A stretch of 10,468 bases of DNA from an uncultured Lentisphaerota bacterium. Its GTDB lineage: Bacteria > Verrucomicrobiota > Lentisphaeria > Oligosphaerales > CAITYL01. Position numbers and translations under genes: made by a program. Within the stretch, counting starts at the first letter, position 1. Every line of letters starts with the position of its first letter. The notes beneath the pieces are model-generated. The model was not told where the DNA came from, searched no databases, and saw nothing but the letters and a program-made list of their open reading frames with translations. Below, piece by piece: positions 97-10,468 of this stretch. Where the stretch lies: contig CAITSE010000040.1 of NCBI GenBank assembly GCA_903894975.1, forward strand, positions 1 through 10,468, in the 5' to 3' direction.

Positions 97-1185
97 TTGT
101 CGCATGAGGATCTGCCCGTGACCGCCACCCCTTCTGAATCTTCCGGTTCCGCCGCGGCGTTCAATCCTGGCGCGGTGTTGGGGCAATACCGTATTGTCCG
201 CCTGCTCGGCCGCGGCGGGATGGGCGAGGTGTATGAGGTGGAGCATGCCGTGCTGCACCGGCGGTATGCGTTGAAATTGCTGCCGGCGGAGTTCGCCGCC
301 GCGTCCGGCGCGCTGGAGCGGTTCCAACGCGAGGCCCGGGTGATGGCGGCCTTGGAGCATCCGAATATCCTCCAGGTCGATGACTTCGGCGAGACCGGCG
401 GCCGCTACTGGCTGCGCATGGAACTGGCCAACGGCGTCAATGCCGCCGGGAAGCCATGCGTCTCCCTGGCCGATTGGGTGGAAGCAAAAGGGGGGAAATT
501 GGATGCGGCGCGGGCGGCGGGCGTGCTTGGGCATATTCTTTCCGGCCTGGCCCACGCTCACAAACGCGGCGTGGTGCATCGCGACCTCAAGCCCGCCAAC
601 ATCCTGCTCCTGACCGCTGCCGATGGGAAGACGGAGGTCAAGATCGCCGACTTCGGCCTGGTACGGCTGGTGGGTGAGGAATGGGTGCGGGGGCGCGCCG
701 AGCAATCCATACGTTTGTCCATGAGCCTGGGCGACCAGCGGACCATGGCCCCGGACGGCGGGTCTTCCACCGGGTCGCTGATCGGCACCTATGCCTACAT
801 GAGCCCCGAACAGAAGCGCGGCGCCGAGGCCGACATGCGCAGCGACGTCTACGCCATGGGCCTCATCGCCTACCGCCTGTTCACCGGGCGCAAGCTGGGC
901 CTCAAGAAGCCGTCCGAACTAGTGCCCGGCCTGGCCCCGGCCTGGGACACCTGGATCATGACCGCGCTGGAGGAAGCCCCCGGCGATCGCTTTGCCGATG
1001 CGGGCGAGCTCCTGGCCGCCATGCCGGACGCGGGGGATGAGGGTTCAGGGTTCGGGGTTCAGGGGTCGGGGACGAACCCGCAACCCGCAACCCACAACCC
1101 GCGGTTCAGGGTTCAGGGTTCGGGGTTCAGGAAAAAGAACCCGCAACCCACAACCCACAACCCGCAACCCATTCCGGCTGGCTGA
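97..1185 (+). CDS. Hanks-type (eukaryotic-like) Ser/Thr protein kinase. The catalytic domain ends near nt 1040; the last ~45 codons are translated heptamer repeat
   Basis: Glycine-rich loop LGRGGMGEVY, lysine in YALKLL, catalytic loop HRDLKPANILL, DFG (IADFGLVRL), SPE-type activation-segment end (YMSPEQ), subdomain IX DVYAMGLIAY. The track start at 97 is TTG; an in-frame GTG at 118, preceded by GAGGA at 106-110 with a 7-nt spacer, is a more plausible start. The C-terminal residues ...GSGFGVQGSGTNPQPATHNPRFRVQGSGF... are a translation of the GGGTTCR/AACCCRC repeat. Confidence 0.85.
   Translation: MSHEDLPVTATPSESSGSAAAFNPGAVLGQYRIVRLLGRGGMGEVYEVEHAVLHRRYALKLLPAEFAAASGALERFQREARVMAALEHPNILQVDDFGETGGRYWLRMELANGVNAAGKPCVSLADWVEAKGGKLDAARAAGVLGHILSGLAHAHKRGVVHRDLKPANILLLTAADGKTEVKIADFGLVRLVGEEWVRGRAEQSIRLSMSLGDQRTMAPDGGSSTGSLIGTYAYMSPEQKRGAEADMRSDVYAMGLIAYRLFTGRKLGLKKPSELVPGLAPAWDTWIMTALEEAPGDRFADAGELLAAMPDAGDEGSGFGVQGSGTNPQPATHNPRFRVQGSGFRKKNPQPTTHNPQPIPAG
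1041..1170. repeat. Heptamer repeat cluster: (GGGTTCR/GGGGTCG)4 - (AACCCRC)4 - (GGGTTCR)4 - (AACCCRC)5, i.e. alternating G-rich and C-rich blocks that can pair into imperfect hairpins
   Basis: Direct reading of 1041-1070 gggttcagggttcggggttcaggggtcgggg, 1071-1100 acgaacccgcaacccgcaacccacaaccc, 1101-1130 gcggttcagggttcagggttcggggttcag, 1137-1170 gaacccgcaacccacaacccacaacccgcaaccc. G-rich blocks satisfy G3+N1-7 x4 (G-quadruplex motif). Confidence 0.8.
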
Positions 1186-2781: not shown

Positions 2782-3144
2782 ATGGTGGATGAAACCAAAA
2801 ACTATCTGACTTTGGAAGAGGTCGCGGACCGGCTGGGAGTGCATTACCAGCTCATCTACCGGTTGGTGCGTGACGGCGAGCTGCCGGCGATCCGGCTGGG
2901 CCGGGTGTACCGGGTGGAGACGACGGATCTGGAGGCCTTCCTCCAGGCGTCAAAGACGGCGCGGGTGCGTTCGCCGGGGGCGGAGCCGCCGGCGGCGTGC
3001 AGCGCCTGCGGCAAGGTCTACAAGAGCCGGCAGTCGCTGACCCAGGAATGTGAAGAGTGCAGCAGCCCGATTTGCGCGGATTGCTGGAGCCGGCGGAAGG
3101 TGCGCAAGTGCAAGGAGCATGGGGGCGGCGGTGGGGGTGGGTGA
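2782..3144 (+). CDS. Excisionase-family (Xis/MerR-like) helix-turn-helix DNA-binding protein with a C-terminal Cys-rich zinc ribbon and poly-Gly tail
   Basis: LTLEEVADRLGVHYQLIYRLVRDGELPAIRLGRVYRVETTDLEAFL matches the excisionase-type HTH pattern (TIGR01764-like). C-terminus CSACGKV...ECEECSSPICADCW has three CxxC-type pairs. The ORF ends in GGGGGGG encoded by the start of the heptamer tract. Confidence 0.85.
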   Translation: MVDETKNYLTLEEVADRLGVHYQLIYRLVRDGELPAIRLGRVYRVETTDLEAFLQASKTARVRSPGAEPPAACSACGKVYKSRQSLTQECEECSSPICADCWSRRKVRKCKEHGGGGGGG

Positions 3145-3145
3145 A

Positions 3146-3178
3146 GGGTTCAGGGTTCGGGGTTCAGGAAGGGCTGGG
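3146..3178 (+). repeat. GGGTTCAGGGTTCGGGGTTCAGG heptamer cluster (G4-capable) immediately after the HTH gene
   Basis: Direct reading: gggttcagggttcggggttcagg followed by aagggctggggttcc. Confidence 0.8.
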
Positions 3179-3185
3179 GTTCCGA

Positions 3186-3253
3186 ACAAATCCAAAATCG
3201 GCAATCCAAAATCCAAAATCAATAATCGGCGATCGGCAATCGAAAATCGGCTG
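3186..3253 (+). repeat. A-rich 'AATCCAAAATCGGCAATCC' repeat block; contains a 24-nt motif AATCGGCAATCCAAAATCCAAAAT (3196-3219) also present at 7890-7913
   Basis: aaatccaaaatcggcaatccaaaatccaaaatcaataatcggcgatcggcaatcgaaaatcggctg; internal near-repeats of AATCGGCAATC and AAAATCCAAAATC. Immediately followed by RBS TAAGGAGG (3254-3261) and ATG 3269. Confidence 0.6.
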
Positions 3254-3268
3254 TAAGGAGGTTGAATC

Positions 3269-4891
3269 ATGGGTCTTTTCTCTGACAATTGCCCGGAGTG
3301 TGGCACCAACGTGCGGCGTACGGCGAAGTTCTGCGGCAAGTGCGGGAAGCCGGGGCCGAAGAGCTGGTTCAAGTGTCCGTCCTGCCGGAAATGGGTGGGC
3401 GGGGATTCGGAGTTTTGCTGGAACTGCCATGCGGCCTTGCATCCGAACCAGCGCGGGGTGATGTCCGGCGGCATCTGGCAGCGCCCGGCCGGGATGTTCG
3501 CCCAACGTTTTGACGTGGACGATCTGCGCGGCCAGCTTGGCAAGGGCGTCATGGTTCAGGCCGGCACCTCCGCGGTGCTTTTGGACCAGGGCGTGCTCAA
3601 GGACGTGCTGGAGCCCGGCCGGCACACGCTCGACAGCCTGATGCAGCGGCTGCTGCACTGGGGTGAACCGGCCCCGCGCACCGTGATCCTGGTGGATGAC
3701 GGGGACGTGGTGCTGCCGTTGCGCATCGAGGGGTTGCGGACGCGTGAGGAGATGCCGGTCGAGTTTTACGGCGAGGTCGCCATCCATTTCCAGGCCGCGG
3801 GCGCGGATCGGCTGGTGGCGAACCTGCTGAAGGAAAAGCGGGAGGTGACCTGCCTGGAGATCACGGAGCATCTGGCCGGCGAGATCCGGTACGCCGTGCA
3901 GAACCTTTGCCAGCAGTCGCTGATGGAAGAATTGATCCGCGACCCGGAGCGGCGGCTGCGCTTGGAGAACACTCTCCAGCAGACCTTGTCCGCGGCGCTG
4001 GACCGGTTGGGGCTGGCGCTGGTGCGGGTGGCGTCGGCGGAGTTCGCGGGAACGGAATACGAGGCCATCCGCGAGAAAATGGGCGGGGTGGAACTGAAGC
4101 GGCGCGAGATTGAGTTTGACCAGCGGTTGCGGGAACTGCTGTCTTCGGACCAGATGCACCAGTTCAAGAACGAGCACGAGCTGGAGGAATACGTCAGCCA
4201 GCTCGCCCAGGAAAAGAATATCAGCGCTTCGCACCGGAACCAGGAGTTGGCGCTGTTGAAGCAGGTGCAGCGGCATGAGTTAGAGGGACACGAGGCGGAG
4301 TTCCAGATCCGGCGGGAACAAGAGCAGGCGGAGCACGAGATCGGCATCAAGGTCAAGTGGGACGATTACGGCCGCGACAAATCGCTTAAGGACGAGCGCA
4401 CCACGGACGAGATCGAGACGATCCGCCGCAAGCGCGAGGATGAAGAAGTCAAACTGGCCCTAACCTGGCGCCAGAAGAAGCAGCAGCTTGAACGCGAGCA
4501 CGAAGGGGAGCTGAAACGCTTGGAGCGCGACGACCTGGCCGAGCGCGGCCGGATCTTCTCCGGGATGAATCTGGAGACGATGCTGGCCACGATCGAGGAT
4601 CCGGCCCGGCGGGCGCACCTGCTGGAAATGCAGCAGCAACTGCAAGCGGCCGGGAAGACGCCGGCGGAGATCCTGGCGATGCAGGCGGGCCGCTCCCCGG
4701 CCGCGGCCGCGGCGTTGCAGGAAATGCTGAGGTCGAACCGGGAATTGCTCGAGTCCGAATTCAAGGAGCGGCAGCGGATCTCGGACGATGGCGCCAAGCG
4801 CCTGGAAGAAGTGATGAAAAAAGCGTTGGAAGCCGTGGCCGAGGCCGCCAAGCGCAGCGGCGGCGGCGGTCCCGTGAACATTGTGACGTGA
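3269..4891 (+). CDS. Three-part protein: N-terminal double zinc ribbon, a Band_7_1 / SPFH-like domain (YdjI-type), and a ~300-aa highly charged E/R/K/Q-rich coiled-coil C-terminal region
   Basis: Strong RBS AAGGAGG 7 nt upstream. CPECG...CGKCG and CPSC...CWNC zinc-ribbon pairs. KGVMVQAGTSAVLLDQGVLKDVLEPGRHTLDS matches the LIVRESQAAVF..G.i.DvF.PG.YTLDT signature of the SPFH-like Band_7_1 family. The region from ~REIEFDQRLRELL to EEVMKKALEAVAEAAKR is heptad-like and charge-rich. Confidence 0.85.
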   Translation: MGLFSDNCPECGTNVRRTAKFCGKCGKPGPKSWFKCPSCRKWVGGDSEFCWNCHAALHPNQRGVMSGGIWQRPAGMFAQRFDVDDLRGQLGKGVMVQAGTSAVLLDQGVLKDVLEPGRHTLDSLMQRLLHWGEPAPRTVILVDDGDVVLPLRIEGLRTREEMPVEFYGEVAIHFQAAGADRLVANLLKEKREVTCLEITEHLAGEIRYAVQNLCQQSLMEELIRDPERRLRLENTLQQTLSAALDRLGLALVRVASAEFAGTEYEAIREKMGGVELKRREIEFDQRLRELLSSDQMHQFKNEHELEEYVSQLAQEKNISASHRNQELALLKQVQRHELEGHEAEFQIRREQEQAEHEIGIKVKWDDYGRDKSLKDERTTDEIETIRRKREDEEVKLALTWRQKKQQLEREHEGELKRLERDDLAERGRIFSGMNLETMLATIEDPARRAHLLEMQQQLQAAGKTPAEILAMQAGRSPAAAAALQEMLRSNRELLESEFKERQRISDDGAKRLEEVMKKALEAVAEAAKRSGGGGPVNIVT

Positions 4892-4907
4892 GCGGGAACA
4901 TGCCGTC

Positions 4908-6212
4908 ATGAAACTGTCGTCCTGTCCAACCTGCGGCCGCGAAACCAGTTCGGGAGCTTATTATTGCCCGGGCTGCGGCGAGAAACTGCGCGGCGGCGCC
5001 GGGGCTGACGCGCCGGCGATGCCGGTCGCGGCGGCGGCGCGGGCGTTTGCGGCCGGCGGTCTGGAGCACCCGGCGCTGGGACTGCGGGGCATGGCGCTGA
5101 TGGACGGAGGCCCAGTGCTGAAGCGGCTGGACGCGTGGGTGCTGGACCGGCTCAGGCTGACGCGGTACGGCGCGAAAACGGAAGTGCCGACGGTGCTCTG
5201 CGAGACCGGCGAGGAATTCTACGGCGCGCTGTTCGCAGACGAACCGCTCTCCCAGGCGCAGATGCGGGAGCTGCTGGCGGCCCAGCTCGCCGCGGCCCAG
5301 GCGCAGGCCGAAGACGGCGGCGGCATGTTCGGCCTGTTCCTGGGGGCGCACGGTTGCCTGGTCAACGGCTGGCTGTTCCGGGAGTTGGCGGGGCTGGACT
5401 CGGTGGCGGCGTGCCTGAAGCGGCCGGAGGTGGCCGCCCGGATCTTCACCACGGCGGCCCATGAAAAATGGGGGCATGGTTTCATCAGCACCTGCACGGA
5501 GCTGGGGCGCGAGGCGGCGGCGCTGGACCTGGACCGGTTTCATTATGCCCGGCGCTTTCCCGCCCAGACCGTGACCACGCCGCGCGGCGTGCTGCTGCGG
5601 GAAAAATCCCAGGCGGTGTTCCAGGCCTCCCGGTTTGTCGAGGAAGGCTGGGCCTCCTGGGTGGATCAGCTTGCGGGGCGGAACCTGGCGGCCATTCTGC
5701 CGGAATGTCCGGAAGGCGGCGGCGGACACACTCTGCCGGAGCCGGAAACCCTGCTGGCGGCGCTGGCCGATGTCCTGCCGCCCGCCGGTATGAAGGCGAT
5801 GACGGTGTTGCTGCGACCCGGCGCGGGCACGCCGGAGCAGGCGACGGCGGCCATGGCGTGGCTGGAGGAGGCCGAAGAAAAGCTGAACGCATTTTTCACG
5901 GCGCGCTTTCATCGGCCGGCCCGGTATGTCGTCGGCCAGGCCATGTGCGCGGCGCTGGCGGCGCGGCTGGGGGAACGGGCGGTCCCGGCGGCGGTGGCGC
6001 TCGCGGGAAACGTCCGGTATGAACTTGAAAAGACCAGTGTGTCAGACCTGGTTTCGGTGGTGGCGGGCAATTCCGGGCTGAACATGAATCGGCGTCTGGC
6101 GGCGCTGCTGGCGCTGGCGGCCGCGGTGCCGCCCGGCGGGGATGCCGCCGTGGCGTTGGCGCGGGCGGCGCACGACCGGCTGAGCTGGACTGTGCCGGAG
6201 TGGGCAAGATAA
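4908..6212 (+). CDS. N-terminal zinc-ribbon protein with an Ala/Leu-rich C-terminal domain of unknown function (contains HEKWGH)
   Basis: CPTCG...CPGCG zinc ribbon in the first 25 aa; 17-nt gap from the upstream gene, so it is operonic. No confident family match beyond the zinc ribbon. HEKWGHGF is HExxxH, not a canonical HExxH zincin motif. Confidence 0.75.
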   Translation: MKLSSCPTCGRETSSGAYYCPGCGEKLRGGAGADAPAMPVAAAARAFAAGGLEHPALGLRGMALMDGGPVLKRLDAWVLDRLRLTRYGAKTEVPTVLCETGEEFYGALFADEPLSQAQMRELLAAQLAAAQAQAEDGGGMFGLFLGAHGCLVNGWLFRELAGLDSVAACLKRPEVAARIFTTAAHEKWGHGFISTCTELGREAAALDLDRFHYARRFPAQTVTTPRGVLLREKSQAVFQASRFVEEGWASWVDQLAGRNLAAILPECPEGGGGHTLPEPETLLAALADVLPPAGMKAMTVLLRPGAGTPEQATAAMAWLEEAEEKLNAFFTARFHRPARYVVGQAMCAALAARLGERAVPAAVALAGNVRYELEKTSVSDLVSVVAGNSGLNMNRRLAALLALAAAVPPGGDAAVALARAAHDRLSWTVPEWAR

Positions 6213-6240
6213 ACAGTAGTGAGAGCTGGGAACGATCCTC

Positions 6241-7773
6241 ATGGCGGATGACGCGACCATTCAATGCGGGAAGTGCGGGCGTCTGGTGCCGGCGGCAATG
6301 TTCTGCGACAACTGCGGGGCGCCGCTGGCTCCGGCTTCCCCGGACACCCCGGCGGCCCGGAGAGAGGCGGCGGCGGAGCGGGACGAGCGGAACGGCTCCG
6401 TTGCGGGAGGGGAAGAACGGGAGACGACGATGGAACCGATCGCGGCGCCCCGGCCGCGGGAGATGCGGATGCCGCCGTCGCCGGTCCGGCCCACGGACAT
6501 GCAATCGGACTGTGACGCCCTGGAGTTTTCGGTGGATGTGAGCCGGGTGTTCGTGGCAGGCGCTACTTTCCCGCTCAAGGTACGCCTGCAGTCCTCCGGG
6601 TTGGAACTGAGACGGGTCAAGGTGGAGGTGGCGACGGATCTGCCGGGCGGCGGCGCGCTACGGTCGGGCCAGACCCTGGACCGGTTACGCGCCGGTGGCG
6701 TCCGGGAACTGTCGCTGGATCTGAGCTTGCCGGAAGGGATGCAGGGGGAAAAGACCTTCCGCTGGAGCGTTTGCCTGGAGCGCGACGGCCAGCCCTGCCG
6801 GTTTGAGGCGGACCCGGTGCGGTACACGATCTATCCCGGCGATGCCAGCGCGCGGAAGGTCGTGGAGCAGGTGGTGTTCAACATCCACACCGGCCACGCC
6901 TCGGACGTGAACATCGGCGGCAAGGGCGCAGCCGAGGACTTTTTCCGCAGCCTGCGGGGCGGCGACGGCTCGGTCCGGGAACTCCTGGACCGGATGCGGA
7001 ACGCCCCGGAAGTCTGGCAGGCACTGCCTTTGCACGAATGCGAGCTTACCCTCCTGGACACGGCCCCGCCTGACGCCGCCGTGACGGGCCGGCTGACGCT
7101 GCGCGCCGGGCAGACACTGTTCCATTTGATCGCCGGGCCCGCGGTGCAGCTCGGTCGGAACCGGCAGTGCGAACTGGTGACGCGGCTGTTCTCGGCCGCG
7201 GGCGCCGCGGAGCCGGATCTGAACGCGCTCCTGAGCCGGGTGCATGCCCGGATCGAATGCGGCACGTCCGGGTGGACCGTCGAGGACGGCGGGATCAACC
7301 CGGAGGATGGCCGCTTCAAGGCGAGTTCCGGCGGGGTGTTCGTCAACGGCCAGCGCGTGGCTCCCGGAGTGAAGAGTCCTCTCCCGTTGAACCGCCCTTT
7401 TGGGCTGACCCTGGGCGCGCCGGCCGTGACGGAACCGCGGGTGATGGGCTTTGATGCGGAACTGCTGACCTGCGAGCGCTGGAACGGGGCGGACTGCCCG
7501 GTGGCGGCCCGGTGCGACCGGAAGCGGCCCGCCTGCCTGCTGCTGCGCCGGCGCGACCGGGTGCCGGAGCGGTTCGCGCTGATCGGCTGCGCTTGCGCCC
7601 CGGGGCTCAGCGTGGGGCTGCCGGAACTGGGTTCGCTGCGGGTCTGGCGGGTGCGGGATGCGTTTGCCTTCAAGTGCGGCGACCAGACCGGCTGGCTGAC
7701 GCCCGGCATCCAACTGCGGCTCTCCGGCGGCACCCAGGTCGCGGTCGAAGGCTTCCAGCAGTGGGGCTTATGA
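6241..7773 (+). CDS. N-terminal zinc ribbon + central region + FHA (forkhead-associated, phosphothreonine-binding) domain + Cys-containing C-terminal region
   Basis: CGKCG...CDNCG zinc ribbon. FHA signature at ~nt 7120-7420: LGRNRQCELV...LSRVHARIEC...WTVEDGG...SSGGVFVNGQRV...LPLNRPFGLTLG. 28-nt gap from the upstream gene. Confidence 0.85.
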   Translation: MADDATIQCGKCGRLVPAAMFCDNCGAPLAPASPDTPAARREAAAERDERNGSVAGGEERETTMEPIAAPRPREMRMPPSPVRPTDMQSDCDALEFSVDVSRVFVAGATFPLKVRLQSSGLELRRVKVEVATDLPGGGALRSGQTLDRLRAGGVRELSLDLSLPEGMQGEKTFRWSVCLERDGQPCRFEADPVRYTIYPGDASARKVVEQVVFNIHTGHASDVNIGGKGAAEDFFRSLRGGDGSVRELLDRMRNAPEVWQALPLHECELTLLDTAPPDAAVTGRLTLRAGQTLFHLIAGPAVQLGRNRQCELVTRLFSAAGAAEPDLNALLSRVHARIECGTSGWTVEDGGINPEDGRFKASSGGVFVNGQRVAPGVKSPLPLNRPFGLTLGAPAVTEPRVMGFDAELLTCERWNGADCPVAARCDRKRPACLLLRRRDRVPERFALIGCACAPGLSVGLPELGSLRVWRVRDAFAFKCGDQTGWLTPGIQLRLSGGTQVAVEGFQQWGL

Positions 7774-7781
7774 AGAGGAGA

Positions 7782-7865
7782 AGGCAGGGGTCGGGGTTCA
7801 GGGTTCAGGAAGCAAAGATGTCAGGACGCAAGGGTTCAGGGGTCGGGGTTCAGGGTTCAGGAAAG
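7782..7865 (+). repeat. Two GGGTTCR heptamer clusters (7782-7808 and 7829-7861), G-rich on + strand, G4-capable
   Basis: ggggtcggggttcagggttcagg ... agggttcaggggtcggggttcagggttcagg. Confidence 0.8.
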
Positions 7866-7870
7866 GCCAG

Positions 7871-7932
7871 GAATTAGGGAAAAATCCGGAATCGGCAATC
7901 CAAAATCCAAAATGAGAATCAGGGTTCAGGGA
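7871..7932 (+). repeat. A-rich block carrying the shared 24-nt motif AATCGGCAATCCAAAATCCAAAAT (7890-7913), followed by AGGGTTCAGGG
   Basis: gaattagggaaaaatccggaatcggcaatccaaaatccaaaatgagaatcagggttcaggg; identical 24-mer to 3196-3219. Confidence 0.6.
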
Positions 7933-7964
7933 AAAAAAACGGGAAAAGTGGGAGAACGATCGAC

Positions 7965-8456
7965 ATGGAAACGTACCGGAGGTTGGAGGACTTGGCGGTT
8001 TACGCGAAGCTTTGTCACTTGCACATTGAGATCAGCGGGATCACGCACCGATGGCCGGCTGAGGAGAAGTACGAGCTGGGATCGCAGGCCCGGCGTTCAT
8101 CGAACAGCGCCCCGGCCCAACTTGCGGAGAAGTATGATGACCGGCATATTCGGAACAAAATCGAAGGAGTCAATCGCAGTCGGGGCGAGGCCGCGGAGAC
8201 GGTACACCATCTTTACATGGCACATTTGCGGGGCTACGAGTCTCAGACGACGTATGAAGAATACCGCGCCCGCTACCAGGAATGCATCCGGATGCTTAAC
8301 GGCATGGAACGAACCCTTGAAAAACAACTGCCCGAATCGGAGCGGCGTTGGCCCCAATTGTCCGTGCGGGAAGAGGAGGGCTCGTATGACGCCTCCCCCC
8401 GCGGTTTCCCCGACCCCCGACCCCTGACCCCCGACCCCCGAACCCCTGAACCCTGA
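7965..8456 (+). CDS. Four-helix-bundle protein of the TIGR02436 family (the family first seen inside 23S rRNA intervening sequences); the last ~20 codons are translated C-rich repeat
   Basis: LGSQARRSSNSAPAQLAEKY...HIRNKIEGVNRSRGEAAETVHHLYMAHLRGY...YQECIRMLNGMERTLEK matches the family signature (L.SQ.RRSS.S...NIAEG...F..A.GS..E..~~...L.yi...eei.kML..Li). RBS GGAGA at 7951-7955. Tail ...PRGFPDPRPLTPDPRTPEP is repeat-derived. Confidence 0.8.
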   Translation: METYRRLEDLAVYAKLCHLHIEISGITHRWPAEEKYELGSQARRSSNSAPAQLAEKYDDRHIRNKIEGVNRSRGEAAETVHHLYMAHLRGYESQTTYEEYRARYQECIRMLNGMERTLEKQLPESERRWPQLSVREEEGSYDASPRGFPDPRPLTPDPRTPEP

Positions 8457-8490
8457 ACCCCGAACCCCGAACCCTGAACCCCGAACCCTA
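8403..8490 (-). repeat. Heptamer cluster in inverted orientation (CCCYGAC/CCCTGAA/CCCCGAA units; G-rich on minus strand)
   Basis: cccgcggtttccccgacccccgacccctgacccccgacccccgaacccctgaaccctgaaccccgaaccccgaaccctgaaccccgaaccctaagcc; reverse complement of the GGGTTCR arrays at 7782-7865. Confidence 0.8.
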
Positions 8491-8511
8491 AGCCGGAAAG
8501 GGAATGAACCG

Positions 8512-9366
8512 ATGAATACGAGGACAACCATGAAAATGACGCGCGGATTGATGACGGCGGCGCTGGCGGCGGGATTGGCCGCGGGCCTGGGCACGGGTTG
8601 TGCAACGCTTTGTCCCGGTAAGACGGCGGCGCCGCCGCCGGTGGTGTCTCCGCCGCCGGTGCCGACGCCAACTCCGCCGGCCCCGATGCCAGTGTTGGCT
8701 CCGCCCCCGGCCCCGGCGATGGCCGTGGGGAAAGAGACCATGCTGAAGGTTCAGGTGCAGGCGACCGGGAGCGGCGCGGATGCCGCAGCGGTGGCGGACG
8801 CATTGAAGATCCACGCGGAAGGCAAGCTCGCCGCCGGCGGGTTTGCCGTCACTCCCAACCAGCCGGAGGTCGCGGTGACCATGGCGGTGACGACGGAGTT
8901 GTTCGACCAGTCCGGGAATTACTTTGTCTTTGACGGCCGGACAGTGGTGTCGGCCGTGCGCATCTTTGACGGCAAGCTTTTGGGCAAGATCGAATTGAAC
9001 GCCCGCAATGAACGCAAACTCGGCCGGGCCGCGGCGCTGGCGGCCCTCACCGCGAAGATGAAGGACGAGGCGGCGTCCTGGCTGGCGGCCACGATCACGC
9101 CGGATAAGATGGGAATCGCCGCCAGCACGCTGCGAGTGCGGCTGGCTTGGGACGACGTGAACAAGGACGGGGAGTTTGCCACGAAATTCACCGGCAAAGT
9201 CACTCAGATTCCCGGCATTGCGCGTTGCACCATGGAGCGCGAGGATTATACGGAACGGATGCTGAATTTTCGCATCCTCCATATGAAAGACCAATTCCCG
9301 GAGGGCATGGTCACGCGGCTTTTCGCGACGCCGGGCCTTGGGATTGTGCCGGATGTGAAGAAGTGA
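8512..9366 (+). CDS. Secreted or lipoprotein-like hypothetical protein: signal peptide, Cys after the h-region, Pro-rich linker, then a ~210-aa domain of unknown function
   Basis: MNTRTTMKMTRGLMTAALAAGLAAGLGTGCATLC then PPPVVSPPPVPTPTPPAPMPVLAPPPAPA. An alternative start ATG at 8530 (MKMTRG...) has a better SD (GAGGA, 7-nt spacer). Lipobox fit (LGTGC) is only approximate. Confidence 0.7.
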   Translation: MNTRTTMKMTRGLMTAALAAGLAAGLGTGCATLCPGKTAAPPPVVSPPPVPTPTPPAPMPVLAPPPAPAMAVGKETMLKVQVQATGSGADAAAVADALKIHAEGKLAAGGFAVTPNQPEVAVTMAVTTELFDQSGNYFVFDGRTVVSAVRIFDGKLLGKIELNARNERKLGRAAALAALTAKMKDEAASWLAATITPDKMGIAASTLRVRLAWDDVNKDGEFATKFTGKVTQIPGIARCTMEREDYTERMLNFRILHMKDQFPEGMVTRLFATPGLGIVPDVKK

Positions 9367-9403
9367 AAAGGACGTGGGACTTGTGACCTGAGAGGTGAAT
9401 GCA

Positions 9404-9853
9404 AAACGCCAAAGGGTTCAGGGTTCGGGGTTCAGGACGGATGGATGCGAAACACACTCAAGCTCCAATGTCCCCCGTCCCCTGCCACCCTAAACGCCAA
9501 AGGGTTCGGGGTTCAGGGTTCAGGACGGATGGATGCGAAACACACTCAAGCTCCAATGTCCTCCGTCCCCCTGCCACCCTAAACGCCAAAGGGTTCGGGG
9601 TTCGGGGTTCAGGACGGATGGATGCGAAACACATTCAAGCTCCAAGGTCCCCTGTCCCCTGCCACCGAGAGGTGAATGCAAAACGCCAAAGGGTTCGGGG
9701 TTCGGGGTTCAGGACGAATGGATGCGAAACACACTCAAGCTCCAATGTCCCCTGTCCCCTGCCACCCCAAACGCCAAAGGGTTCAGGGTTCGGGGTTCAG
9801 GACGAATGGATGCGAAACACACTCAAGCTCCAATGTCCCCGTCCCCCCACCCC
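9404..9853 (+). repeat. Five tandem copies of an ~88-bp unit (88, 89, 100 with a 13-nt insert, 88, ~85 bp), each containing AAACGCCAAAGGGTTCRGGGTTCRGGGTTCAGGACGRATGGATGCGAAACACACTCAAGCTCCAATGTCCCCYGTCCCCTGCCACCC
   Basis: Unit boundaries at aaacgcc: 9404, 9492, 9581, 9681, 9769. The third unit carries the gagaggtgaatgc insert that also precedes the first unit (9391-9403). Not CRISPR: there are no unique spacers; the whole unit is repeated. Confidence 0.85.
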
Positions 9854-9890
9854 CTGAACCCTGAACCCTGAACCCTGAACCCTGAACCCT
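9854..9890 (-). repeat. (CCCTGAA)5 perfect heptamer run, the reverse complement of TTCAGGG, capping the 88-bp tandem array
   Basis: ccctgaaccctgaaccctgaaccctgaaccctgaaccct. Confidence 0.85.
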
Positions 9891-9988
9891 ACCCTCGCAC
9901 CCCTTCTGCACCCGCCTCTTGAAACTGGAACTGGAACTCAGAGATTGGCAACGGAACTGTCGGAAACATCAGGCAAGGAGATCATGGC

Positions 9989-10468
9989 ATGAAAACGATT
10001 CATTGGATGAGGACGTTGGCGGCGGCAATGCTGTTGCCGTGGGCATGGGCCGGGATGCCGGCGCGGGCACAGTCGCTGCCGGACGAGACCCGGCAGGCCA
10101 TCGGCAAGGTGGGGATGGACGTCCAGGCGGCATTGCAGAAATCCGGGATTCCTAAGAACCAGCCCATCGCGATTCTACCTCTCGCCAACGATCCGGAACA
10201 GTATGTGGCCGGGATGCTGAAGAACGCGGTCACGGCGGCGGGACTGCCCTGCGTCGAAGGCCGGGACGATCCGTTCTGGAACCAGGTGCTGGCCGAGGTG
10301 GAATGGAGTGAGCGCAAGGCGGACATGCTGGATCCGGCAACGCTGACCAAGTTCGGCAAGCTCAAGGCCGCCAAGCTGCTGCTGTACGGCGTGGTACGGG
10401 ACATGTCTTTCTCCGGGGCGAAAGGGTTTGTGGAGATTGAGCTGCACATCAGCGCCATCGAGACCAAG
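9989..10468 (+). CDS. Partial (3'-truncated by the window end) secreted protein with a CsgG/LpoB/FlgO-like periplasmic domain pattern; not in the supplied ORF track because no stop lies within the window
   Basis: RBS AAGGAG (9975-9980), 8 nt before ATG 9989. Signal peptide MKTIHWMRTLAAAMLLPWAWAGMPARA/QS. QPIAILPLANDPEQYVAGMLKNAVTAAGLPCVEGRDDPFWNQVLAEVEW...KLKAAKLLLYGVV resembles the iAVlpf.n.......g..l.d.L...L...g..vvER..l..vl.E pattern of the CsgG/LpoB-type fold. Open frame to the end of the window (160 codons). Confidence 0.6.
   Translation, partial: MKTIHWMRTLAAAMLLPWAWAGMPARAQSLPDETRQAIGKVGMDVQAALQKSGIPKNQPIAILPLANDPEQYVAGMLKNAVTAAGLPCVEGRDDPFWNQVLAEVEWSERKADMLDPATLTKFGKLKAAKLLLYGVVRDMSFSGAKGFVEIELHISAIETK

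What the first reader, a model, noticed from the sequence alone, without database searches (positions are those of the whole stretch)
9391..9890. Five tandem copies of an ~88-bp structured unit capped by an inverted (CCCTGAA)5 run: candidate structured-RNA array or composite repeat element, not CRISPR
Seen in sequence: unit starts at 9404, 9492, 9581, 9681 and 9769 with about 90 percent identity. Each unit has a 5' G-rich arm (GGGTTCRGGGTTCRGGGTTCAGG), a conserved ~35-nt centre (ACGGATGGATGCGAAACACACTCAAGCTCCAATGT) and a 3' C-rich arm (CCCCYGTCCCCTGCCACCC), so each can fold as a hairpin. The 13-nt string gagaggtgaatgc precedes unit 1 and is inserted in unit 3, suggesting the array grew by duplication of a two-unit block. 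The array ends with five perfect CCCTGAA repeats, complementary to the internal TTCAGGG, giving potential long-range pairing across the whole array.
Unit lengths are not multiples of 3 and the ORFs called across it (9399-9857 etc.) change frame every unit, so it is non-coding. It lies between two envelope-protein genes with strong RBSs, so it would be transcribed in a read-through or UTR context.
Basis: seen in the sequence. Interest (0 to 1): 0.6.

Follow-up and report, generated by a model that had tools for sequence, protein, structure and literature searches.

The report
Copy-variable 88-bp intergenic hairpin repeat
The five 88-bp repeats are real but are a young, non-coding tandem repeat found only in this lineage, built from the GGGTTCR heptamer arrays that fill this uncultured PVC-group bacterium's gene spacers; nothing indicates a conserved structured RNA.

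Summary
There are five head-to-tail units of 88 bp (90-95.5% identical), a 13-nt string before units 1 and 4, and a perfect (CCCTGAA)5.6 cap.

The structured-RNA reading is not supported:
- Rfam gave no match.
- Three of five units fold no better than shuffles.
- None of 23 consensus pairs covaries.
- The 35-nt core occurs nowhere else I could search.

The array fills a 622-nt spacer between two co-oriented genes of a conserved operon. Four relatives have 18-158 nt there and no heptamers. In other assemblies of the same organism the spacer is shorter by exactly 88 or 176 nt, giving 5, 4 or 3 units. This looks like a VNTR, but short-read collapse is not excluded.

The only strong structure is a 24-bp duplex between a unit's (GGGUUCR)3 and the terminal (CCCUGAA)n. 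The same inverted heptamer arrays bracket the neighbouring four-helix-bundle (S23p/PF05635) gene, here and in unrelated genomes, as in 23S rRNA intervening sequences.

Best reading: an ORF-less, heptamer-ended hairpin element amplified internally by slippage. It is probably co-transcribed and possibly an RNase III target. Interest is moderate to low for the array and higher for the cassette family it points to.

The parts
8530..9366 (+). Upstream gene X (278 aa, no Pfam domain), orthologue of the 217-aa gene in relatives
   Evidence: Gene table. It is 48% identical to L009:6832-7485. Pfam gave no family.
9391..9403 (+). 13-nt GAGAGGTGAATGC, copy 1, the start of the higher-order block
   Evidence: Sequence. 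The block 9390-9571 matches 9667-9848 at 94%.
9404..9491 (+). Unit 1 (88 nt): linker AAACGCCAAA, (GGGTTCR)3GG at 9414-9436, 35-nt core, C-rich heptamers
   Evidence: RNA fold -35 kcal/mol, z -2.75.
9492..9580 (+). Unit 2 (89 nt), G-array 9502-9524. It carries a C-run that differs by 1 nt between assemblies (window about 9567).
   Evidence: Fold z -1.78.
9581..9667 (+). Unit 3 (87 nt, 3' end truncated), G-array 9591-9613
   Evidence: Fold z -0.43 when folded with the 13-mer.
9668..9680 (+). 13-nt GAGAGGTGAATGC, copy 2
9681..9768 (+). Unit 4 (88 nt), G-array 9691-9713
   Evidence: Fold z -0.99.
9769..9851 (+). Unit 5 (83 nt, degenerate 3' arm), G-array 9779-9801. This G-array forms the 24-bp stem with the terminal run.
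   Evidence: pairs I7-I9. RNA fold of 9769-9895 is -54.2 kcal/mol, z -7.5. The DNA fold has z -7.2.
9852..9890 (+). (CCCTGAA)5.6, perfect. It is the reverse complement of the GGGTTCA heptamer and forms the 3' arm of the element.
9891..9988 (+). Unique leader of the downstream gene, with AAGGAG at 9975-9980
   Evidence: Sequence. No sigma-70-like promoter or intrinsic terminator was found in 9200-10100.
9989..10468 (+). LpoB-like lipoprotein gene (388 aa in full, cut by the window end)
   Evidence: Gene tables. Homologues are in Lentisphaerae, Victivallales and Verrucomicrobiota MAGs.
7787..8488 (+). Related element: a four-helix-bundle (PF05635) gene at 7965-8456, bracketed by (GGGTTCR)n at 7787-7861 and 11 x (CCCYGAM) at 8408-8488
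   Evidence: Pfam E 1.1e-21. Arrays. In the RNA fold the terminal arrays pair with each other.

Best explanation
The region is a non-coding composite repeat found only in this lineage. It was inserted into the spacer of a conserved, co-oriented gene pair.

Anatomy:
- An ORF-less hairpin element has G-rich heptamers (GGGTTCR)3 as its 5' arm and the perfectly complementary (CCCTGAA)n as its 3' arm.
- Its left part is linker, G-array, 35-nt core and C-rich heptamers. This part was multiplied head-to-tail to five 88-bp units.

Growth (inferred): units are gained and lost in whole-unit steps by replication slippage or unequal recombination between the near-identical units. This makes the locus a minisatellite (VNTR).

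Action (inferred by analogy, not shown):
- The array is read through as part of the operon transcript.
- One of the five competing G-arrays pairs with the single terminal C-run.
- The resulting duplex is about 24 bp of near-perfect dsRNA.
- It is the same kind of terminal stem that brackets S23p-encoding intervening sequences, and it is long enough to be an RNase III substrate or a decay barrier between the two cistrons.

The 35-nt core has no detectable function of its own.
For: Shown:
- The tandem structure and the perfect cap are real.
- It is non-coding. Unit lengths are not multiples of 3, no gene was called in the gene tables of the other assemblies, and the 152-aa ORF translation has 0 hits among 1.84 billion protein representatives.
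- It is an insertion. The FHA gene, gene X and the LpoB-like gene are syntenic in relatives.
- In those relatives the X-to-LpoB spacer is 18, 71, 100 and 158 nt, with no heptamer arrays in L009, L010, L137 or L138.
- The spacer varies in whole units: 622 or 621 nt, 533 nt and 445 nt.
- L005 differs from the window only by an exact 88-nt deletion and a 1-nt C-run indel. The rest of the spacer and the 837-nt upstream gene are identical.
- The duplex is strong. Unit 5 plus the cap folds at -54.2 kcal/mol with z -7.5. The whole array has z -6.8.

Family context:
- GGGTTCRGGGTTC occurs 34 times in the window against 0.05 expected.
- The next spacer downstream holds a related element with two G-array units and the same (CCCTGAA)4CCCTACCC end, fold z -5.7.
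- An ORF-less element of the same plan exists in L022, z -4.9.
- The same inverted arrays bracket the PF05635 gene here and in L022, L134/L135 and L136. L108 shows the upstream array only, because the contig ends inside the gene.
- In the two cassettes folded (window and L136), those arrays pair around the ORF.

Literature:
- The S23p-encoding IVS of Coxiella has a 28-bp terminal stem cut by RNase III and strain-variable heptameric repeats (PMC4990558).
- Cyanobacterial STRR heptamers form hairpins in operon spacers (PMC2670836).
Against: - Transcription, processing and any effect on expression are untested.
- Copy-number differences come from short-read assemblies. The L005 deletion lies exactly in the longest exact inter-unit repeat (55 nt at 9698). 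That length equals what I recall as the largest default metaSPAdes k-mer, so assembler collapse cannot be excluded. MEGAHIT contigs L006 and L012 break inside the array.
- The core has no significant similarity to the interior of the four-helix-bundle cassette, so descent from that cassette is not shown.
- No target-site duplication or empty site at the DNA level was available.
- Only about 11 kb of this genome could be read, so I cannot say whether the 88-bp unit is dispersed elsewhere in it.
- The hairpin is equally good on either strand and as DNA, so an RNA-level rather than a DNA-level role is not discriminated.
Confidence: 0.55

Rival explanations
1. It is a purely neutral minisatellite. 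A local spacer segment that happened to contain a heptamer array was duplicated by slippage. It has no relation to a mobile or IVS-like element and no consequence for the RNA.
For: - The array is young: units are 90-95.5% identical.
- It is absent from relatives.
- Spacer lengths differ by whole units.
- There is no covariation.
- The core is unique to this locus.
- The core is unrelated to the cassette interior.
Against: - The perfect inverted (CCCTGAA)5.6 cap and the shared ...(CCCTGAA)4CCCTACCC end in the next spacer indicate a recurrent element plan rather than a one-off duplication.
- The same arm pair brackets a conserved gene cassette in unrelated genomes.
- A duplex of about 24 bp at -54 kcal/mol in an operon spacer is unlikely to have no effect on the RNA.
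Confidence: 0.25
2. It acts at the DNA level. It could be a contingency or phase-variable spacer whose copy number tunes expression of the LpoB-like gene. It could also be a protein-binding or non-B-DNA (hairpin, cruciform, G-quadruplex) site.
For: - Spacer lengths differ by whole units between otherwise identical alleles.
- The DNA hairpin of unit 5 plus the cap has z -7.2.
- The minus strand of the cap (9859-9913) fits a four-tract G-quadruplex pattern.
- The array lies directly upstream of a gene start.
Against: - No promoter-like site lies in or next to the array.
- The flanking genes are tightly packed in relatives, so the promoter is probably far upstream.
- The G-arrays inside the units have only three GGG tracts.
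- No binding protein is identified.
Confidence: 0.1
3. It is an array of discrete structured small RNAs, or a multi-site sponge RNA of the CsrB/Rsm type. Each unit carries CAGGACGGAUGGAUG with three GGA motifs.
For: - There are two or three GGA motifs per unit (sequence).
- The units repeat.
- Unit 1 folds at z -2.75.
Against: - Rfam gave no match at E<=1, CsrB/Rsm families included.
- Three of five units fold at z above -1.
- No pair of 23 has a compensatory change, and several substitutions break pairs.
- The GGA motifs lie in predicted stems, not loops.
- The core is conserved nowhere else.
- The array is absent from all relatives examined.
Confidence: 0.06
4. It is an assembly artefact or a cryptic coding repeat.
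For: - The repeats break assemblies.
- One reading frame stays open for 152 codons.
Against: - The same 5-unit array is recovered in separate assemblies. L006 and L012 from one sample match the window exactly apart from a 1-nt C-run indel and overlap each other. ERZ1426631 and ERZ1426660 have a 621-nt spacer.
- The frame changes with every unit.
- No gene was called here in the gene tables of the other assemblies.
- The translation has no homologue among 1.84 billion protein representatives.
Confidence: 0.03

Closest known systems
Cyanobacterial STRR (short tandemly repeated repetitive) heptamer sequences
   Same: Both are tandem 7-bp units in spacers between co-transcribed genes and are able to form hairpins. 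Their function is unknown; they have been proposed to stabilise transcripts or couple translation (PMC2670836).
   Different: - The heptamer is different: GGGTTCR and its complement, not the CCCCAGT-type consensus (from my own knowledge).
- The host is a PVC-group bacterium, not a cyanobacterium.
- Here the heptamer array is embedded in an 88-bp higher-order unit with a unique 35-nt core.
23S rRNA intervening sequences (IVS) carrying an S23p / PF05635 ORF
   Same: - Terminal inverted repeats form a stem of more than 20 bp (28 bp in Coxiella, cut by RNase III).
- Heptameric tandem repeats with strain-variable number lie next to the ORF (PMC4990558).
- The neighbouring cassette at 7787-8488 has the ORF, the arms and the fold.
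   Different: - The 88-bp array has no ORF.
- It lies in an mRNA operon spacer, not in 23S rRNA helix 9, 25 or 45.
- Its arms are heptamer arrays and its interior is a tandem repeat.
- RNase III cleavage is untested.
MIRU-type minisatellites (VNTR) of Mycobacterium tuberculosis
   Same: Both are tandem repeats with units of tens of bp. MIRUs are minisatellites whose copy number varies between strains (PMC3635867); from my own knowledge they also lie in spacers within operons.
   Different: - MIRUs are one unit family dispersed over many loci, and they carry small ORFs that overlap the flanking genes (my own knowledge).
- Here the core was found at one locus only and no such ORF arrangement exists.
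REP/BIME extragenic palindromes and MITEs
   Same: They are GC-rich hairpin-forming repeats that colonise intergenic spacers of operons, and they are non-autonomous relatives of larger elements (review PMC3184786).
   Different: - REPs are palindromes of about 35 bp in alternating orientation, mobilised by RAYT transposases (my own knowledge).
- Here the units are direct, 88 bp long and built of heptamers, and no transposase is in the window.
CRISPR arrays
   Same: Both are regularly spaced direct repeats with some dyad symmetry.
   Different: There are no unique spacers because the units are contiguous. The unit is 88 bp. No cas domain was found among the 9 ORFs scanned.

Membership tests
Bacterial minisatellite / VNTR | Head-to-tail copies of a 10-100 bp unit in non-coding DNA | tested here: met
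   TRF gives period 88, 4.9 copies and 88% matches. No gene was called and the ORF has no homologue.
Bacterial minisatellite / VNTR | Copy number differs between strains in whole-unit steps | tested here: inconclusive
   Spacers of 622/621, 533 and 445 nt correspond to 5, 4 and 3 units. All are short-read assemblies, and the L005 deletion sits in the 55-nt longest exact repeat.
MIRU-type interspersed minisatellite | The same unit is dispersed at many loci of the genome | tested here: inconclusive
   The core is absent from GTDB representatives, JGI metagenomes, viral contigs, plasmids, phages and 129 other loci. Only about 11 kb of this genome was readable.
MIRU-type interspersed minisatellite | Unit ORFs overlap the stop and start of the flanking genes (translational coupling) | tested here: not met
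   Unit lengths are not multiples of 3. ORF 9399-9857 touches neither 9366 nor 9989.
STRR-like heptamer arrays | Tandem 7-bp units in intergenic spacers that can form hairpins | tested here: met
   (AGGGTTC)3.4 lies in units 1, 2 and 5, (GGGTTCG)2.9 lies in units 3 and 4, and (CCCTGAA)5.6 forms the cap. The 24-nt arms are 92-96% complementary.
STRR-like heptamer arrays | Cyanobacterial host and STRR consensus heptamers | tested here: not met
   The heptamer is GGGTTCR. Neighbouring proteins have their relatives in Lentisphaerae, Verrucomicrobiota and Kiritimatiellae MAGs.
S23p-type intervening sequence (IVS) | Terminal inverted repeats forming a stem of 20 bp or more | tested here: met
   A 24-bp stem at 96% complementarity, -54.2 kcal/mol and z -7.5.
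S23p-type intervening sequence (IVS) | S23p / PF05635 ORF inside the loop | tested here: not met
   There is no ORF with a homologue in 9391-9890. The feature is met only by the neighbouring cassette at 7965-8456.
S23p-type intervening sequence (IVS) | Inserted in a 23S rRNA helix | tested here: not met
   Rfam finds no rRNA in the window. The element lies between protein-coding genes.
S23p-type intervening sequence (IVS) | Excised by RNase III | not testable with these tools
   This needs an in vitro cleavage assay or RACE, as in PMC4990558.
CRISPR | Short repeats separated by unique spacers of similar length | tested here: not met
   The units abut, and the whole 88 bp is repeated at 90-95% identity.
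Known RNA families (Rfam 15), including CsrB/Rsm sponges | Match to a curated covariance model | tested here: not met
   0 matches at E<=1 over the whole window. No tRNA or tmRNA was found.
Conserved structured RNA (generic) | Base pairs kept through compensatory changes, and a fold better than shuffles | tested here: not met
   0 of 23 pairs are compensatory and the covariation term is +0.84. Unit z-scores are -2.75, -1.78, -0.43, -0.99 and -0.32. Power is low with 5 near-identical copies.
REP/BIME | Imperfect palindromes of about 35 bp in alternating orientation, with a RAYT transposase in the genome | tested here: not met
   All units are direct and 88 bp long. No transposase domain was found among the window ORFs. 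The rest of the genome was not available.

The most novel reading that the evidence does not exclude
The inverted arrays (GGGTTCR)n and (YGAACCC)n are the termini of an undescribed family of IVS-like elements. These elements colonise the spacers of protein-coding operons rather than 23S rRNA in PVC-group and other environmental bacteria. The autonomous-looking form carries a highly conserved four-helix-bundle (S23p/PF05635) gene. The 88-bp array is an ORF-less, internally amplified member of the same family. All members place an RNase III-type duplex into polycistronic mRNAs.
Probability: 0.35. Interest if true: 0.65.

Novelty: new variant of a known kind. Interest (0 to 1): 0.4.

Why it matters
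The array by itself is a modest result: a young minisatellite that could serve as a strain marker. It also explains why assemblies of this organism break at these spacers.

Its arms matter more. The same inverted heptamer arrays enclose a four-helix-bundle gene that stays 73-89% identical across many metagenomes, while its neighbours differ entirely. This matches the plan of S23p-bearing intervening sequences, which are known only from 23S rRNA.

If confirmed, IVS-type elements would also be invaders of ordinary operons. There a 20-45-bp duplex could cut or stabilise mRNAs. The unknown function of S23p proteins could then be approached through their conserved cis-elements.

Tried and rejected
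- Rfam scan of the whole window at E<=1 gave nothing. ARAGORN gave nothing.
- The promoter and terminator scan of 9200-10100 gave nothing.
- The exact core was searched in GTDB representative genomes, JGI metagenomes and viral contigs. All returned 0.
- blastn of the array against plasmids and phages gave no match.
- Protein X has no word-sharing homologue other than itself.
- The ORF 9399-9857 was searched as a protein against 1.84 billion representatives and gave 0 hits. Coding was rejected.
- A covariance model of the unit found only its own copies. The weak hits of at most 28 bits are generic G-array/C-array hairpins.
- I tested whether the core is an internally deleted remnant of the four-helix-bundle cassette. 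Local alignment scores were no better than shuffles, so this was rejected.
- I tested whether the AATCCAA/AATCGGC heptamers pair with GGGUU through G-U wobble, which would have pointed to an RNA-level constraint. The fold of 3140-3256 has z -0.09, so this is not supported.
- The canonical four-tract G-quadruplex pattern is not met inside the units. It is met only on the minus strand of the cap.
- The (GGGTTCR)3 scan of JGI metagenomes hit more than 120 contigs. Many of these look like TTTAGGG-type eukaryotic telomere or subtelomere repeats, so the breadth of the bacterial distribution should not be read from that count.

Full report
**Observation**

The sequence is as described.
- Tandem Repeats Finder gives 9404-9846 with period 88, 4.9 copies, 88% matches and score 678. 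It gives 9852-9890 as (CCCTGAA)5.6 at 100%.
- The five units start at 9404, 9492, 9581, 9681 and 9769 and are 90-95.5% identical pairwise.
- Each unit has four parts: a 10-nt linker, (GGGTTCR)3GG, a 35-nt core, and a C-rich 3' part that is itself heptameric.
- The 29-nt core occurs five times in the window at up to 3 mismatches, with none expected.
- GAGAGGTGAATGC stands at 9391-9403 and 9668-9680. The block 9390-9571 matches 9667-9848 at 94%. The array is therefore [13-mer, U1, U2, truncated U3][13-mer, U4, U5], followed by the cap.
- Diagnostic substitutions are shared in a mosaic pattern, which suggests more than one duplication or conversion event.

**Not coding, not a known RNA**
- Unit lengths are not multiples of three.
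- No gene was called in the spacer in the gene tables of the other assemblies.
- The 152-codon ORF has no hit among 1.84 billion protein representatives.
- Rfam gives nothing at E<=1 in the whole window, and ARAGORN gives nothing.
- No sigma-70-like promoter or intrinsic terminator was found in 9200-10100.

**Structure**
- Single units fold at -24 to -35 kcal/mol. Dinucleotide shuffles of such G-rich and C-rich sequence fold nearly as well: z is -2.75, -1.78, -0.43, -0.99 and -0.32.
- The consensus fold of the five units has 23 pairs. None has a compensatory change, several substitutions break pairs, and the covariation term is +0.84. With five near-identical copies this test has little power, but it gives no support.
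- The one strong feature is pairing of a unit's G-array with the terminal C-run, which is 24 nt and 92-96% complementary.
- Unit 5 plus the cap folds at -54.2 kcal/mol with z -7.5.
- The whole array folds at -226 kcal/mol with z -6.8.
- The hairpin is as good on the other strand and as DNA.

**Conservation**
- The core is absent from one-genome-per-species GTDB contigs, JGI metagenome contigs, viral contigs, plasmids and phages.
- A covariance model of the unit scores 105-116 bits on its own copies. It scores at most 28 bits anywhere else in 355 kb of related or heptamer-bearing loci.

**Context**
- The window is a metagenome contig of an uncultured PVC-group bacterium. The LpoB-like protein has relatives named Lentisphaerae, Victivallales and Verrucomicrobiota, and the four-helix-bundle protein has one named Kiritimatiellae.
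- All genes are on the + strand.
- The order HTH_17, (Zn-ribbon proteins), FHA protein, gene X, LpoB-like recurs in relatives L009, L010 and L138, where a trypsin-like protease gene follows the LpoB-like gene. X is 48% identical to its L009 counterpart and the FHA protein 30%.
- In four relatives the X-to-LpoB spacer is 18, 71, 100 and 158 nt. The three with DNA have no heptamer array anywhere.
- The 622-nt spacer here is therefore a lineage-specific insertion into a tightly packed operon. This makes read-through transcription likely, but that is an inference.

**Copy number**

Other assemblies carry 100% identical X and LpoB-like proteins.

| Assembly | Spacer (nt) | Units |
|---|---|---|
| Window | 622 | 5 |
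| ERZ1426631, ERZ1426660 | 621 | 5 |
| L005 | 533 | 4 |
| ERZ1426818 | 445 | 3 |

- L005 differs from the window only by a clean 88-nt deletion (window 9698-9785, a U4/U5 hybrid) and a 1-nt C-run indel.
- L007 looks like a U1/U2 hybrid followed by U3, but its contig ends too early to be sure.
- Caveat: the L005 deletion coincides with the longest exact inter-unit repeat, which is 55 nt. To my knowledge that equals the largest default k-mer of a common metagenome assembler. MEGAHIT contigs also break inside the array. Collapse is therefore not excluded.

**The heptamers are a family**
- GGGTTCRGGGTTC occurs 34 times in the window against 0.05 expected, and 14 of these lie outside the finding.
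- In the window, G-arrays come first and C-type arrays second on the coding strand.
- Two 63-bp G/C modules lie in the 3' end of the kinase ORF at 1040-1171, with fold z -2.9 and -4.3.
- The spacer after the LpoB-like gene (L005 2636-2838) holds two short G-array units, C-rich heptamers and the same ...(CCCTGAA)4CCCTACCC end as the array, with fold z -5.7.

**The cassette**
- The PF05635 gene at 7965-8456 lies between (GGGTTCR)n at 7787-7861 and eleven CCCYGAM heptamers at 8408-8488. Its TGA stop is part of a heptamer.
- Its protein has 2210 homologues. The best 120 are 73-89% identical. By contrast, X has no word-sharing homologue and the LpoB-like protein drops to 67% and then 57%.
- Homologues chosen by protein similarity alone (L134/L135 and L136) show the same arrays 10-25 nt before the ATG and across the stop codon, between entirely different neighbours.
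- L022 shows the same arrays on both sides, and L108 shows the upstream array, although these two loci were found through the array itself.
- In RNA folds the two arrays pair and enclose the ORF.
- This is the plan of S23p-encoding intervening sequences of 23S rRNA. The Coxiella IVS has a 28-bp terminal stem cut by RNase III. It also has two or three heptameric repeats before the ORF, varying by strain (PMC4990558).
- I found no paper describing such cassettes in mRNA operons.
- The core of the 88-bp unit is not recognisably derived from the cassette interior.

**Interpretation**
- The finding is an ORF-less member of this genome's heptamer-ended hairpin elements.
- Its left part has been amplified to five units by slippage or unequal recombination. 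It is probably still changing in unit steps.
- Its likely molecular consequence is a duplex of about 24 bp in the operon transcript, with five alternative 5' partners for one 3' arm. By analogy with IVS stems, this could be cut by RNase III or could block exonucleases.
- These last steps are inferred, not shown.
- The structured-RNA-array reading fails the tests available. A DNA-level role cannot be excluded.

Noticed in passing
window 7787-8488: A four-helix-bundle (PF05635, 23S_rRNA_IVP/S23p) gene at 7965-8456 is bracketed by (GGGTTCR)n upstream and 11 x (CCCYGAM) downstream. Its stop codon lies inside a heptamer. In the RNA fold the arrays pair and enclose the ORF, as in a 23S rRNA intervening sequence, but the element sits between protein-coding genes.
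   Followed up: partly
L022 2140-2640; L134 9924-10470; L135 6-517; L136 9967-10472; L108 1180-1577: Close homologues of that gene sit between unrelated neighbours: Rieske and cytochrome c-like genes, an epimerase, AllG and a cyclase. 2210 hits were found and the top 120 are 73-89% identical. L022, L134/L135 and L136 carry the same inverted heptamer arrays on both sides; L108 shows only the upstream array because its contig ends inside the gene. This suggests a horizontally mobile cassette, which is not described in the papers I could search.
   Followed up: partly
window 1040-1171: Two tandem 63-bp modules of (GGGTTCR)3-4 followed by (AACCCRC)4-5 lie inside the 3' end of the called Ser/Thr kinase ORF. 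Each folds as 5-bp helices separated by 2x2 loops (z -2.9 and -4.3). A short (CAGGGTT)2.6 array also lies inside the next ORF at 1280-1297.
   Followed up: partly
window 3188-3251 and 7880-7913: A second heptamer family (AATCCAA / AATCGGC, including GGCGATCGGC) follows the GGGTTCR arrays in two spacers. It does not pair significantly with them (z -0.09).
   Followed up: partly
L005 2636-2838 (spacer after the LpoB-like gene, beyond the window end): A related composite element holds two units of AGAAT(GGGTTCR)2-3...GGATG.ATGAAGGC, then CCCGCCC heptamers, then (CCCTGAA)4CCCTACCC identical to the end of the 88-bp array. It folds at -96.5 kcal/mol with z -5.7.
   Followed up: partly
L022 1414-1550: An ORF-less hairpin element lies between two genes: (GGGTTCA)2GG, an unrelated core of about 95 nt, then (YGAACCC)4. 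It folds at -68.8 kcal/mol with z -4.9. It has the same plan as the array's last unit plus the cap.
   Followed up: partly
L062 about 9960-10010; L125 about 6890-6940; L133 (minus strand, about 3120-3170 of the reverse complement): Three unrelated JGI contigs share a hairpin motif GGTG(C)GGCGCAT(C)AAAAAT..GAAGCGCCGC. In each it is embedded between series of different heptamer arrays (GGGATTA, TGAGAAA, CAGTCAC, GACGTCA) and their complements. This may be another conserved intergenic element.
   Followed up: no
L014, L015, L039, L060, L071, L122 and similar short JGI contigs: Many contigs hit by (GGGTTCR)3 consist almost wholly of GGGTTTA/GGGTTCA-type heptamers at 44-52% GC. They look like eukaryotic telomere or subtelomere repeats rather than bacterial spacers.
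   Followed up: no
L001 (ends 7854), L002, L005 (both ends), L006/L012, L013: Contigs of this organism from several assemblies start or stop inside heptamer arrays or inside the 88-bp array. These repeats are therefore a systematic cause of assembly fragmentation.
   Followed up: partly
window 9984-9992: A three-codon mini-ORF (ATG GCA TGA) overlaps the ATG of the LpoB-like gene at 9989, just after the AAGGAG at 9975-9980.
   Followed up: no
window 2782-10468; L009 4791-9735; L138 1966-8682: The gene order HTH_17, FHA-domain protein, X and LpoB-like is conserved, with a trypsin-like protease gene after the LpoB-like gene in the relatives (that position lies beyond the window end). Zn-ribbon proteins sit between HTH_17 and the FHA protein in the window and L138. 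This may be an envelope-associated signalling operon in Lentisphaerae-like bacteria. The window lineage is about 60% GC against 66-69% in the relatives.
   Followed up: partly
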